Positions 17,002 through 62,020 of a stretch of DNA of 64,000 bases are shown piece by piece. The first letter of the stretch is position 1, and every line of letters begins with the position of its first letter. The stretch comes from Eledone cirrhosa (lineage: Eukaryota). The position numbers and the translations under genes are program-made. The stretch is taken from contig OZ024749.1 in the NCBI GenBank assembly GCA_964016885.1, positions 46,934,001 to 46,998,000 of the forward strand, read 5' to 3'. The notes under the pieces are model-generated. The model was not told the DNA's origin. It was given only the letters and a program-made list of their open reading frames with translations, and did not search any database.

Positions 17002-17005
<4 letters not shown>
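16845..17005 (+). mobile_element. 3' end of PLE family F with a variant hammerhead
   Basis: CAGAAGA TCGC gttaa GGGT GAAA GCA..TGC TT, then tail GAGCCCTCTTTGGATTTTAGTCTTCAAATTTATT matching the reverse complement of 60345-60385; ends in (TA)n. Confidence 0.85.
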
Positions 17006-17063
<58 letters not shown>

Positions 17064-18574
17064 AAGTAAGTCCATAGATCATTAGATAAAATATATACAG
17101 TAGTTCTTCTCCCATTCAGCATAATCAACCATACAACACATCATTTAAACGAGGTTATGGGTTTAAAATACCTATGAAGAATAATAGATAAATAAATGAT
17201 ATCTTTTAATCCGCGATTCAAGCCACAGAAAATTTACCTAGTATTTCTGAGAGCATGTAGAAATTGACTAGACATACAGCTAACCATACATAATTCGGTA
17301 CAACATGAAAGTTAGTGGAATAAGTGTACATAAACATACCAAAATCATCACACACGCCTTGGTATTATGCCAATACTATATATCATTTCACACCTTTTAT
17401 TATTAAGGTTTTTGATGTTCTATTGAGAGAATCGATTTTACTGAAAATATCGAATAACGTACACCATTTTACCAGGAAAAAAATACTGGTCCACCCACAC
17501 ACACACACGCACACATTCTCAAACACAACACACACGCGTACATTAACATACAAAGATACATATACACACACACACGCACACACACACACTTCTCCGTATA
17601 AGACAAGAGCTGAAAAATATCTTCTAACATGTTAAAATATCCCCCACTCACTTACAGACACATTCCTACTGACGATCACTCTACCACGAATTACTCTGCT
17701 ACACACACACTTACACACACACACACACACACTTGTCTTAATAGGCATTTGAACTGTCAACAGGCTGCGGTTCGCACACACATATTTGCTGATCATTATC
17801 ACAACAACGAACACTTTACTATTACTACACACACACCATATTTGTTGTGAACGAGTCATTTCTCAGTCAGCCGACATAAACCTACATTTGGCGCAAATTT
17901 AATTGTTTACATTTTCACAAGACCTCTACCGACCAATCAACATTTTGGCCACAAGCATTTTTGCAACACGAATTGGCGCAAAACTTATTTTAATACCGCT
18001 GGAGCCACTTTTTTAACATAAAAACAGGTACACTTCCCAAAACTAATCAGATAAGAGCAAACATCACGGATGCTTTATCTCAAAATTATTTTTGAAAAGC
18101 ATTAGAAATGCGCAAACGGTAAAACATAAAACCCAAACTGAATACTAACCAATACAATTACTAAGGCTCACTTATTCCTAATTGAACTATTTTTCACTGT
18201 GAACAATTTGTCAGCATTTTCTATTCCGCATTATATATATTAAATGTTTACATTGAGTTAGAAACTCAAATAGTCTCTTACAACAAAATAGCTCTAAGAA
18301 AGAGATATTTCCGAGCCGTATATTATAATAGAATATAAAAGAAAACCGAACAGATATATATAGATATATGTGTTCAAATCGAAAGGGACCTGATTTGCTA
18401 AGCTGAAAAGAATACTAACTATAGACAATTGGGTTCGCTTGTCTCAATTTAGGAAAGACATTTAGAAAATAAATAAAAAACCGGAATTGTGGTAATCATC
18501 AATCATTCAGAAAACTTGTTGTTTCGCAAAGTTAATTGTGAATAGAAATACTATTGCAAGCTCATTATTATATC

Positions 18575-46406: not shown

Positions 46407-47054
46407 GTAATATAATAATTATGAAGACTGAAATCCAAAGAGGGCTCCTTATCGGGAACTTCTGAAACTAAAAATGTCAATCTGTGAACGCAAAGTAAAT
46501 ATTTCAAAAAAAGTTGCAACCGGAGGAAGACAGGAAGACGAGACTTGTGTTCGTGGAAACGTTACCTGGCAAAGAACGGAAAAAAAACGAAGATAATACG
46601 TCATTATTTGGACCGTTGACAAACAATTACGCGCCAAGACAAGACCTCGTTGATGGTATAAAAGAAGTCGTATACTAATATTCTATTAGGTGGTTCATGG
46701 AGTTGTTCTCTGGCAATGAATGGAAAAAAAACGTCATTAAGTGGAGCGTAGAGAACAAATGGACGCAAAGAAAAAACCACGTGGATGGTATAACTGAAGT
46801 CGTAGACTAAAATTCTAACTAGGAAACCGAACGATTCTCGGCTTCAGAGTTAAGAATAAAGTAAATAAAATACAGTGGTAATTGAAATAAAATAAATACG
46901 TACACGCATCCAAATACGTACATGCACAATCAGACGGGACAATACAAATACAAGCACGTACACAAAAAAACCCGCACGCACATACATAATCCACGCAACG
47001 CCTGTACCGGCACACTTACGAATGTATACACCAAATACGCATAAACATATATAA

Positions 47055-47055
<1 letters not shown>
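46406..47055 (-). mobile_element. PLE family F 3' region with an internal deletion through the hammerhead
   Basis: Collinear with 60341-61000, including the internal duplication; lacks ~95 bp after GAGGGCTC. Confidence 0.88.
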
Positions 47056-47147
<92 letters not shown>

Positions 47148-47152
<5 letters not shown>

Positions 47153-47963
47153 GATTACATATATATATATATATATACATAGATACATATACGTGTTTTG
47201 CAACGGGTCACTTTGTGGCTCAATGAAAAGTTAATAAATTAAATAATCAGAGCTATATATCATAAAACATGTCTATAGAATCACCAGATAAAATATATAC
47301 TATTTCCTCCCCCAATTAGCATAATTAACCAGATAAAAAATCGAATAGACCAGGCTATAAGAATAAGGCTTCTATGAAGAAATCTCCTACAAATAACCGA
47401 AACTATCCCTACGCTGCAACGGAATATTTATCGAATATTTCGACACCGTAATCGCCTAGATATACAGTCAATTAAACAGAATTAGGTGTAAACTATACTA
47501 GGAGAAAAGAGAAGACATTTATTTACGTCGACCATGGTTTCGTCCGCATTTTAAGATTTCCGATAACTTCGGAAACTTGAGCACCGGACTCTTCAGGAGT
47601 TTCCTCAAATCTAGACAATAAACTTTCTAGAGTGATCGCCCCAAAAATACATTAAAACATGGCTAAGAATCGTGACGTAGCAGCGGTCAGGTTGGAAGGA
47701 GTGTGGTTAGTTGCTTACAACTGGTGTCTTTTTGCTAGAAAGCGCAGTACAATACAGCCACATTTGTTTCTCAACCTAACGGGAGATTATTACATACAAA
47801 GGTTTACATATAAATATATACATACTAACATATACATGTTTTGCAACGGGTCACTTTGTGGCTCAATGAAAAGTTAATAAATTAAATAATCAGAGCTATA
47901 TATCATAAAACATGTCTATAGAATCACCAGATAAAATATATACCATTTCCTCTCCCAATTAGC
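47148..47963 (-). mobile_element. partial-tandem non-coding element, 643-bp unit, ~1.25 copies
   Basis: 47148-47320 is repeated at 47798-47963; contains a hammerhead. Confidence 0.88.
47525..47600 (-). ncRNA. type I hammerhead with canonical core
   Basis: ACTC CTGAAGA GTCC..TTTCCGA agtta TCGGAAA..GGAC GAAA CCATGG TC GACGT. Confidence 0.85.
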
Positions 47964-48021
47964 TAAGCACGCCGTTTCTGAGGGTACCAAGGCTGTCACG
48001 AAGTACACCACCAGCAAGTAG
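47959..48021 (+). pseudogene. H2B: histone H2B C-terminal fragment
   Basis: Translates to LAKHAVSEGTKAVTKYTTSK*, the highly conserved H2B C-terminus; the rest of the gene is absent. Confidence 0.95.
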
Positions 48022-48069
48022 ACCAATTACTGCTGCTTAAGACAAATCAAAACACACACACACGCACAG

Positions 48070-48126
<57 letters not shown>

Positions 48127-48284
48127 TGTGTGTGTGTGTGCGTGCATACATATACTTAAACAAACGTATATACATAAATAAATACGTATATAACGCGCGC
48201 ACACACATACCTGCATGTAGGTATGTGTGTGCGCGCGTTATACACGTATTTATCTTGTTTTTGTGTGTGTTCACACAAAAAAAG

Positions 48285-53959: not shown

Positions 53960-54001
<42 letters not shown>

Positions 54002-54143
54002 CAGGTACACATCAGTTTAGCGGACGCTTATTATAACGCCCGCTTTGTTCGTTTGTAAATAAACTGAACAGCCTGAATTTATGCCGTACGGTGTTAAGGC
54101 AACCACGTCACCTTTTTGTTCAACACTGACCACTGACACAGGA

Positions 54144-54186
54144 ACGATGTACTAGTTTCAAGCTTGTTAGCTATCATCAGCACCGT
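54144..54186 (-). ncRNA. minimal type I hammerhead (U.U at stem II base)
   Basis: ACGGTG CTGATGA T AGCT aaca AGCT T GAAA CTAG TA CATCGT. Confidence 0.85.
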
Positions 54187-54287
54187 ATACCCTTCTGCCA
54201 TGTATGTACGTATACATAGATACTTACATTTAAGTAAGTGCCGTACTAAGAGTGAGAAATGAAATTTCGTTTTCATTTTATTACAAC

Positions 54288-60310: not shown

Positions 60311-60340
<30 letters not shown>

Positions 60341-60344
<4 letters not shown>

Positions 60345-62020
60345 ATCATAATAAATTTGAAGACTAAAATCCAAAGAGGGCTCGAAAAGGATAAATATAT
60401 ATGAAATATATAAGAACCGTAGAGCGAATATTTATTAAAATAACAAATTAAATGTTAAGCAAAAAATCGCTGCTTTCACCCTTAACGGGATCTTTTGAAA
60501 CTAACAAAGTCAATCTGTACACGCACATGTGGCTATTTCCAAAAACGTTGCAACTGGAGGAAGACAGTAAGACGATACTTTGGTTTGTGGAAACGTTGCC
60601 TGGCAAAGAACAGGAAAAAACGAATATAATACGTCATTAATAGGAGCGGTGAAAACAATTAAGCGCAAAGACAGAACCACGTTTATGGTATAAAAGAGGT
60701 CGTAGACTAATGTTCTCTTAGGTGGTTCATAAAGACGTTCTCTGGCAATGAACGAAAAAAACAAAGATAATACGTCATATGTGGAGCGTGGAGAACAATT
60801 GCACGCAAAGACAAAACCAAGTAAATGGTATAGAAGAAGTCGTAGACTAAAATTCTAACTCGGAGACCGAATGAATCTCCGCTTCGGAGTTAAGAATAAA
60901 GTAAATAAATAAAATACAGAGGTAATATAAATTAAATAAATACATACACGGATACAAATATGTACATACACAAGCATACACGAACACACTTACCATAGGT
61001 ATACAAAACCACGCACATATAAATATGTGTGTGTGTGTGTGCGTGTATACAAATAAATAAACAATTAAATAAACGTATATAAATAAATAAATACGTATAT
61101 AACAAGCGCACACACATACCTACATGTAAATACACAAATGTTCGGAGACGTAAGTCAACCAAAACATGAGGTAGATATATAAACCCTATATAAATAAAAT
61201 AAATACGTACACGCATACAAATATGTACATACACAAGCATACACGAAAACACACCCTACATACGTAAGAACCTGCATACTCACACAGACGCAAAAGTCCC
61301 GTATATACAAAATCAAACCATATGTACCAGAATATATAAAATTATACGCCATAACATATGCAATCAAATATACGTACGAGAAAGTATACGTACCTTCACA
61401 AAACATACAGGTAATATATACTTACCTATGCAAATAAGTAATAGTATGAACAAAACATATACTTAGCTACACATCAAGACGTAAAATATCCACGTATAGA
61501 TCGTACTATCCGTTAGGTTATAACGTGGGCTGTAATACAGGAATGTTTTGTGCAATTTATGTTTACAAGCCGAAATTGCGTCAGATTTTTTGTTTAAGAT
61601 GTGGTCTGTGGCGTAGTGTATTTCTAGGGTCTCAGCGGCGCAGAGGTCACATGGTCTTTTATTTCCGTTATACAATCTAGCCCTAGCTAGGATCTTCCAG
61701 TGTAACTTATATTGGGTGTGGTTGTCTTTTAGACTCCAGATAAAAGCAGAAAGTGACGTCATATTCCTTTTTAGAGGGTAACGAAAAGAATGGGTATGCA
61801 TGTAAAGACGCTGCTTGAATCTATTGTCGTTTAACCCTATGTAGGCCCTACGGGACGTGGGTGTTTGAACCTTACATTTGTAGACAATGTTACTAGAGAG
61901 GCATTTCCCGGATAGGGGGCAATCAACCCGATTCCTACAATTACAGTTAGAGAAGATCCCGGTAAGGTTGAAACCAGCCATTGTTTGCTTAAACTTTAAC
62001 CTGTTATTTTAATAAATAAA
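60341..62020 (-). mobile_element. 5'-truncated Penelope-like element (family F): endonuclease end, ~1.1-kb 3' region with a hammerhead at 60452-60502, inverted hammerhead fragment at 61951-62020
   Basis: GIY-YIG ORF, shared family tail, inverted 3' piece at the 5' junction, (TA)n flanks. Confidence 0.88.
61463..61950 (-). CDS. PLE GIY-YIG endonuclease domain (N-terminally truncated, no RT)
   Basis: CNCRxxxxCPLxGxCL, IVY..YIG, FKQRxxxH, TSLSxFIW, WKIL, CDLCxxE, LNKK..CKH; the first ~10 residues of the listed ORF come from the inverted non-coding fragment. Confidence 0.85.

What the first reader, a model, noticed from the sequence alone, without database searches (positions are those of the whole stretch)
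47959..48050. Histone H2B fragment fused to the 5' junction of a hammerhead element
Seen: 63 bp encoding LAKHAVSEGTKAVTKYTTSK* plus a short putative UTR begin exactly where the 643-bp repeat stops. The junction AATTAGC is shared by the element (compare 47314-47320) and the H2B frame. H2B is antisense to the HHR strand and no histone stem-loop follows. Inference: microhomology-mediated capture of histone sequence during integration, i.e. host-sequence transduction by a PLE-type element.
Basis: partly seen in the sequence, partly recalled or inferred. Interest (0 to 1): 0.7.

Follow-up and report, generated by a model that had tools for sequence, protein, structure and literature searches.

The report
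Jumping repeat captured histone mRNA fragment
A non-coding jumping repeat with a self-cutting RNA motif sits fused, back to back, to a short copy of the end of a histone gene inside a (TA)n tract, and similar fusions elsewhere in this genome suggest that the Penelope-type copying enzyme likely grabs histone messenger RNA from the second cut strand while it inserts.

Summary
The H2B piece is real (47959-~48054) and unique at this junction. The microhomology is 5 bp (TTAGC), not AATTAGC: the six nearest H2B loci read GAG-TTA-GCT. Element, H2B and a (CA)n run sit as one block in the (TA)n tract of an older repeat; 27 of 29 paralogous copies show the empty site. This argues against a chimera or an older pseudogene. 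The 643-bp hammerhead family often has an inverted second arm (27 of 72 loci); here H2B takes its place, ending just before the stem-loop. Genome-wide, 27 of 30 dispersed histone pieces that reach the stop codon lack the stem-loop, and six others are fused to such repeats, a Penelope-like ORF or a SINE. Best reading (0.6): two cDNAs primed from opposite target strands, one on element RNA and one on H2B mRNA. This is capture in trans, not flank transduction. Two successive insertions remain possible (0.22); H2B looks somewhat more diverged than the element. Known for LINE-1; I found no report for Penelope-type retrozymes. The scan earlier noted another retrozyme in this window, but no histone capture.

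The parts
46447..47058 (.). left half of the target: an older dispersed repeat (family E, 3' region of a Penelope-like element with a C-terminal GIY-YIG-like ORF)
   Evidence: 83-88% identical to 29 other copies; second copy in window at about 60330-61990 hits a PLE endonuclease region at E 5e-27
47059..47149 (.). (TA)n tract, left side of the insertion (inferred primer for the element cDNA)
   Evidence: sequence; the empty site holds a short (TA)n tract here
47150..47963 (-). hammerhead repeat (family A), about 1.27 monomers of 643 bp; the inferred 3' end is at the left (TA)n and the 5'-truncated end at 47963
   Evidence: 2392 exact matches to one 28-nt end motif in the genome
47530..47596 (-). 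type I hammerhead core; a private G>C change at 47527 breaks one helix I pair in this copy
   Evidence: 89% of cells paired against 25-53% for slid controls
47959..47963 (+). 5-bp microhomology TTAGC shared by element and H2B
   Evidence: locus, element continuation and H2B L003 side by side
47959..48021 (+). last 20 codons and stop of histone H2B, 59 of 63 identical to the C7:93.70-93.73 Mb H2B group
48022..48054 (+). H2B 3' UTR, ending in an A/C-rich run just before the (absent) stem-loop
48052..48095 (.). (CA)n run that is absent from the empty site; origin unexplained (fold-back copy of the target's (TG)n, or later slippage)
48096..48123 (.). (TA)n tract, right side of the insertion
48124..48219 (.). 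right half of the target repeat (family E), in register with the left half; its own inversion follows at 48214-48253
   Evidence: 27 of 29 copies show this half directly after the left half

Best explanation
The block is likely a single Penelope-type insertion in which the two cut ends of a (TA)n target each primed a cDNA, the left end on the hammerhead-repeat RNA and the right end on an H2B mRNA just upstream of its stem-loop, and the two cDNAs were likely joined through the 5-bp overlap TTAGC. Shown: the block sits inside an otherwise intact older repeat; the family often carries an inverted second arm; H2B occupies that position in that orientation; histone pieces in this genome usually stop before the stem-loop; six other histone pieces are fused to arms of (TA)n-ended repeats, a PLE-like ORF or a SINE. 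Inferred: that the hammerhead strand is the template, that a PLE-encoded RT/endonuclease acting in trans did the work, that both cDNAs arose in one event, and how the (CA)n linker formed. The piece has no promoter, start codon or stem-loop and is most likely inert.
For: Empty site in 27 of 29 paralogous target copies. Family architecture in 72 loci taken in chromosome order: 27 inverted pairs, 34 single arms running into microsatellite, 11 other; arms start at two fixed sites (65 and 32 of 114). 14 of the 27 inversion junctions overlap by 1-13 nt (read). 27 of 30 dispersed histone pieces reaching the stop lack the stem-loop, against 50 of 55 intact genes that have it. Parallel cases: L214, antisense SINE + H2A 3' end + (TA)n, the same geometry; L239 H3 (101 of 101 identical to one H3 gene), L233 H3 and L087 H2B, each between two inverted (TA)n-ended arms; L209 H2A fused to a diverged family-A arm and L090 H2B fused to a truncated PLE-like ORF. 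Where a histone 3' end abuts a hammerhead arm or the ORF (L209, L233, L090), the two are in the same sense, as a template jump predicts. A purified PLE protein nicks and extends both strands and starts internally at AC-rich sites (PMC11167929). Antisense RNA/LINE-1 chimeras are ascribed to twin priming (PMC13174262).
Against: Ages fit only loosely. H2B differs from its nearest loci at 4 of 63 coding and about 6-8 of 35 UTR bases. The element has 29 private changes in 772 (3.8%), but only 3 in 258 in its terminal repeats (Fisher p 0.007 for 10/96 vs 29/772, p 0.30 for coding alone). With a 4-5% age about 6.6 differences are expected (P of 10 or more = 0.13); with a 1.2% age about 2 (P = 5e-5) (both expectations are my rough estimates). 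No exact source gene was found. A target-site duplication cannot be read inside (TA)n. No autonomous partner of family A was found. No histone piece lies in 72 + 27 other family-A loci, so the event is rare. No hammerhead was found in the held copies of the arm families around L087 and L239.
Confidence: 0.6

Rival explanations
1. Two successive insertions into the same (TA)n hot spot. A tailless H2B retro-fragment arrived first (or second), and the other insertion joined it by microhomology, deleting the (TA)n and part of the earlier insert in between.
For: (TA)n tracts take many repeat families here. Histone pieces lie alone in TA/TG tracts at L200, L212, L222, L236. H2B looks more diverged than the element's terminal repeats.
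Against: No TA residue at the junction; both target halves are complete; it needs an extra deletion; three young-looking cases with a histone piece exactly between two inverted arms fit single events.
Confidence: 0.22
2. DNA-templated repair. The element cDNA end invaded an H2B gene through TTAGC, copied about 95 bases of DNA, and returned to the target. No mRNA template is involved.
For: It gives the same orientation and the same microhomology.
Against: A DNA template gives no reason to stop at the stem-loop, yet this piece and 27 of 30 stop-reaching pieces lack it. L084 and L086 start within 10 nt of the ATG and end before the stem-loop, at mRNA-like limits.
Confidence: 0.08
3. Classical 5' transduction. 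A parent element already sat next to H2B sequence, and a read-through antisense transcript carried both.
For: The orientation allows it. PLEs can move host sequence between their pLTRs (PMC3846280).
Against: No parent or sibling: the junction occurs once and a 30-mer with five private changes matches only this copy at up to 2 mismatches. The end at the stem-loop boundary would be a coincidence.
Confidence: 0.04
4. Assembly chimera.
For: No record from the public runs laid spans the junction, and depth is zero over 48025-48062. These runs are of unknown relation to the assembled animal and human-like reads are filtered, so this is weak.
Against: It needs two mis-joins that leave the target halves in register. 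The piece differs from every H2B locus found, whereas a mis-join would copy an existing one.
Confidence: 0.04

Closest known systems
Antisense RNA/LINE-1 chimeras by twin priming (Law & Burns 2026, PMC13174262; passages read)
   Same: A host RNA piece in opposite orientation at the 5'-truncated end of a retroelement, read as two reverse transcriptions from opposite ends of one break.
   Different: Here the partner is a non-coding hammerhead repeat of Penelope type in an invertebrate-like genome, the target is (TA)n, there is no poly(A), and the RNA is histone mRNA. The passages name tRNA, 5S, U5 and some mRNAs; their supplementary Table S5 was not read and could list a histone.
Tailless histone retropseudogenes (Noll et al. 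2015, PMC5322556; passages)
   Same: 3'-truncated copies of non-polyadenylated histone mRNA, primed internally (51 in human).
   Different: Those are L1-driven stand-alone copies with target-site duplications. This one is fused to a hammerhead repeat inside a microsatellite.
Metazoan non-LTR retrozymes as non-autonomous PLE derivatives (Cervera & de la Pena 2020, PMC7229834, passages; Li et al., bioRxiv 10.64898/2026.07.22.740005, part 1 of 5)
   Same: Type I hammerhead in a low-GC, non-coding monomer that also occurs in tandem; thousands of copies.
   Different: The monomer is 643 bp against 150-450 bp reported; this copy holds one hammerhead; host RNA capture is not mentioned in what I read.
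Penelope-mediated host gene movement in Adineta vaga (Arkhipova et al. 2013, PMC3846280; passages)
   Same: Host sequence moved in trans together with PLE terminal repeats; microhomology at 5' junctions; inverted arms.
   Different: There an intron-containing gene lies between direct pLTRs, and inverted arms are put down to self-priming on an antisense template. Here a short mRNA end replaces, or lies between, inverted arms, which points to a second RNA molecule.
Telomerase-RNA fragments at interstitial telomeric sequences (Nergadze et al. 2007, PMC2246262; passages)
   Same: An RT related to PLE RTs leaves an RNA-derived piece in opposite orientation at a break, with microhomology.
   Different: The piece is the enzyme's own RNA, and the authors reject twin priming for it.

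Membership tests
Metazoan non-LTR retrozyme | type I hammerhead core with helices I-III | tested here: met
   helix II 100% paired in 12 copies; this copy has one broken helix I pair; no Rfam hit
Metazoan non-LTR retrozyme | head-to-tail monomers, two or more consecutive units with a hammerhead | tested here: inconclusive
   met in the family (L048 has two cores 638 bp apart; L039 tandem); this copy has 1.27 units and one core
Metazoan non-LTR retrozyme | monomer of about 150-450 bp | tested here: not met
   643 bp against the range in PMC7229834
Metazoan non-LTR retrozyme | low GC, no RT coding | tested here: met
   GC 14-45% by region; no tblastn hit of two PLE protein pieces in 47150-47963; ORFs not listed separately
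Metazoan non-LTR retrozyme | self-cleavage and circular RNA | not testable with these tools
   no RNA holder listed
Penelope-type insertion | partial tandem plus inverted 5'-truncated arm | tested here: met
   27 of 72 loci; feature as described in PMC8557442
Penelope-type insertion | two start sites (optional tail) and microsatellite target | tested here: met
   65 and 32 of 114 arms start at two sites; (TA)n at the outer ends. The tail here is about 100 nt, longer than the 30-40 nt described
Penelope-type insertion | autonomous RT + GIY-YIG partner sharing the element's end | tested here: inconclusive
   PLE-like ORFs occur in the held loci but none was tied to family A; no genome-wide search for a partner; Pfam did not recognise the two pieces
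Twin-primed RNA/retroelement chimera | RNA piece antisense to the element at its 5' end | tested here: met
Twin-primed RNA/retroelement chimera | one insertion relative to the empty site | tested here: inconclusive
   paralogous empty site in 27 of 29; no orthologous or allelic empty site seen, so successive insertion is not excluded
Twin-primed RNA/retroelement chimera | target-site duplication around the whole block | tested here: inconclusive
   (TA)n on both sides; a duplication cannot be measured in it
Tailless retropseudogene | 3' end internal to the RNA, no poly(A) | tested here: met
   ends about 5 nt before the stem-loop
Tailless retropseudogene | made by LINE-1 | not tested
   the context points to a PLE-type enzyme instead (inference)
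Flank transduction | a source locus with the same element-host junction | tested here: not met
   1 of 43 matches spans the junction, itself; no sibling copy; counts from the DNA search are lower bounds

The most novel reading that the evidence does not exclude
Penelope-type RT treats the A/C-rich stretch just before the histone stem-loop as an internal start site and is a main maker of histone retro-fragments in this genome. Because a foreign mRNA can replace or bridge the inverted second arm, the head-to-head arms of PLEs and retrozymes are built from two separately primed RNA molecules, one per nicked strand, and not by self-priming of one template.
Probability: 0.35. Interest if true: 0.72.

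Novelty: new variant of a known kind. Interest (0 to 1): 0.52.

Why it matters
The fragment itself is almost certainly inert. Its value is as a marked product of a mechanism that PLE specialists call undefined (PMC8557442): how the inverted arm forms. When both arms are element sequence, one cannot tell one template from two. A histone piece in that slot, seen with four repeat families, a PLE-like ORF and a SINE, favours two templates. It gives a direct in vitro test, and suggests a poly(A)-independent route to retrocopies in genomes rich in PLEs.

Tried and rejected
Rfam scan: no hit. Whole-window repeat scan was swamped by microsatellites. Single-strand folding of the hammerhead region was not better than shuffles (z -1.17). 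Public runs: no RNA holder listed; no laid record spans the junction, which is uninformative given unknown relation, low shares and filtering. An apparent fixed element end at 47964 was an alignment effect; copies continue through it, and only 9 of 114 arm ends fall in 47312-47330. A KYTTSK source gene: none, also none in 60 kb of the C7 cluster. 5' H2B beyond the element: none in the window. Sibling copies: none. Pfam on the L180 PLE-like pieces: nothing useful, so 'PLE-like' rests on recalled motifs (RT thumb, zinc-finger linker, GIY-YIG) and on cross-matches. Poly(A) control: ribosomal S3Ae gave two exons and no retrocopy; one gene and a protein search, too weak to show histone specificity. 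Microsatellite at the 3' end of histone pieces: 8 of 40 against 9.4% background, p 0.03, including this locus; weak. L086 abuts a PLE-like region tail to tail; I could not tell fusion from insertion into it, so it is not counted. Literature searches that found no report of histone or mRNA capture by PLE twin priming: (open-access library only; supplements not read). Earlier scan notes with these words: none.

Full report
Observation. The 63 bp at 47959-48021 encode the end of histone H2B, and homology to host H2B genes continues through the 3' UTR to about 48054. The six closest loci (59 of 63 coding bases; four in the C7:93.70-93.73 Mb cluster, two on small contigs) read GAG-TTA-GCT at the junction. 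The element reads CCAA-TTAGC-ATAATT in its left repeat. The shared stretch is therefore TTAGC, 5 bp. Paralogues with GAA-TTA-GCT are more distant (52-56 of 63) and have other UTRs. The hammerhead core is on the minus strand at 47596-47530, so H2B is antisense to it. No stem-loop follows.

The element. It is a 643-bp monomer family; one 28-nt end motif has 2392 exact matches in the genome. In 72 loci taken in order along contig C1 (from the first 100 of those matches, overlapping loci and two loci already held dropped), 27 have two arms pointing inward with (TA)n outside, 34 have one arm running into microsatellite, and 11 end in other sequence. Arms start at two fixed places, 65 and 32 of 114. 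Tandem copies exist (L039, L048). Hammerhead pairing holds in 12 aligned copies: 89% of cells paired, against 25-53% when partners are slid. This is the anatomy described for PLE insertions (PMC8557442, passages) and for non-LTR retrozymes (PMC7229834, passages; bioRxiv 10.64898/2026.07.22.740005, part 1), though the monomer is longer than the reported range and no autonomous partner was identified.

The target. The flanks 46447-47058 and 48124-48219 are two halves of one older repeat. In 27 of 29 other copies the right half follows the left across a short (TA)n(TG)n tract. So element, H2B piece and a 44-nt (CA)n run form one block inside that tract, with no flank lost. No other H2B sequence lies in the window. 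The junction occurs once (1 of 43 matches), and no sibling shares the copy's private changes. Public runs did not span the junction but cannot decide it.

A class of events. I searched the genome with H2B, H2A, H3 and H4 (H1 not searched). From the matches I picked by hand 40 dispersed pieces, this locus included, leaving out intact or clustered genes, apparent variant or intron-containing genes (L204, L226, L232/L241) and duplicate loci. Thirty reach the stop codon and 27 of these lack a stem-loop, while 50 of 55 intact genes have one. Six others are fused to mobile repeats. L214 repeats this locus's geometry with a tRNA-like SINE: (TA)n, antisense SINE, H2A 3' end stopping 1 nt before the stem-loop, (TA)n ('SINE' is my reading of box-like motifs). 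L239 (H3, 101 of 101 identical to one gene), L233 (H3) and L087 (5' part of H2B) lie between inverted, (TA)n-ended arms of three other families; the L233 family carries a hammerhead motif, while none was found in the held copies of the other two. L209 has H2A fused to a diverged family-A arm, and L090 has H2B fused, 2 nt before the stem-loop, to a 5'-truncated ORF with PLE-like RT-thumb and GIY-YIG motifs (motif names recalled, Pfam silent). Where a histone 3' end meets a hammerhead arm or the ORF, both are in the same sense; where the truncated histone 5' end meets an arm whose polarity is known (this locus, L233, L214), the arm is antisense. None of 72 + 27 other family-A loci holds histone sequence, so captures are rare per insertion.

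Mechanism. A purified Poseidon protein nicks and extends both strands of AT-rich DNA and starts internally at two AC-rich sites (PMC11167929, parts 1-2 read). I infer that here the left end copied element RNA rightwards to 47963, the right end copied H2B mRNA leftwards from the A/C-rich run before the stem-loop, and the two cDNAs annealed at TTAGC. Overlaps of 1-13 nt are ordinary at the family's own inversion junctions (14 of 27, read). In L239, L233 and L087 the right-hand cDNA would first copy an arm and then jump to the mRNA. The (CA)n linker is unexplained; a fold-back copy of the target's (TG)n would supply a primer end matching the mRNA, but slippage would also do.

Against. The H2B piece has about 10 differences in 96 from its nearest loci. 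The element has 29 private changes in 772, unevenly spread: 3 of 258 in the terminal repeats and 26 of 514 inside (p 0.008). An age of 4-5% fits both; an age of 1.2% does not (rough expectations). Three of the four coding differences are silent, which could mean an unassembled source gene. Successive insertion into one (TA)n hot spot therefore keeps 0.22. The single poly(A) control is too weak to show histone specificity.

Known and new. Antisense RNA/LINE-1 chimeras are ascribed to twin priming (PMC13174262, passages), tailless histone copies are known in mammals (PMC5322556, passages), and PLEs move host genes in trans (PMC3846280, passages, which explains inverted arms by self-priming). I found no report of histone-mRNA capture by PLE-type or hammerhead repeats; supplements were not read and may bear on this. 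Two earlier scan notes call this genome an octopus; I did not test that. Verdict: real, inert in itself, a new variant of a known kind, useful as evidence on how PLE inverted arms form. Interest 0.52.

Noticed in passing
L239 (G000:C19:12213503-12213576) 1328-1745: 101-bp H3 3' end, 100% identical to one H3 gene (L217), ending 1 nt before the stem-loop, between two inverted (TA)n-ended arms 97% alike; the youngest-looking capture and the best one for a population test.
   Followed up: partly
L233 (G000:C7:42300969-42301166) 858-2175: H3 piece between inverted arms of a second hammerhead-bearing tandem repeat of about 490 bp; partial match also at window 53993-54277.
   Followed up: partly
L087 (G000:C3:311822792-311822977) 1332-1810: 5' part of H2B, starting about 24 nt before the ATG, between inverted arms of a third (TA)n-ended repeat; that repeat also lies at window 18127-18227.
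   Followed up: partly
L180 4761-6300 (G000:C3:264.07 Mb): H2B 3' end fused in sense to a 5'-truncated PLE-like ORF with an Asn-rich linker between RT thumb and GIY-YIG-like domain.
   Followed up: partly
L214 1280-1620; L256 1490-1960; L263: Histone pieces fused to or set among tRNA-like SINEs; the SINE at L214 ends in (TA)n, so it may use the same enzyme.
   Followed up: partly
L084 (C1390), L086 (C3:98.56 Mb), L222 (C2:101.0 Mb): Near full-length histone copies from the ATG region to just before the stem-loop; L084 has a possible 6-bp target duplication, L086 abuts a PLE-like region tail to tail.
   Followed up: partly
window 60330-61990: 3' part of a PLE-like element (endonuclease-like frame 61960-61526 on the minus strand) of the same family as the target of this insertion.
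   Followed up: partly
window 17004-17250: Older, about 72% alike relative of the 643-bp family beside a (TA)n tract.
   Followed up: no
window 47192-47963: Private changes are four times denser inside the monomer than in its terminal repeats (26 of 514 against 3 of 258), with many transversions; other copies show a much smaller contrast. Unexplained.
   Followed up: partly
L047 2240-3030; L157 1597-1644: Family-A junctions with several short fold-back pieces or repeated templated inserts, signs of repeated re-priming.
   Followed up: no
L222 650-800: A long perfect inverted repeat with a hammerhead-like core at its centre.
   Followed up: no
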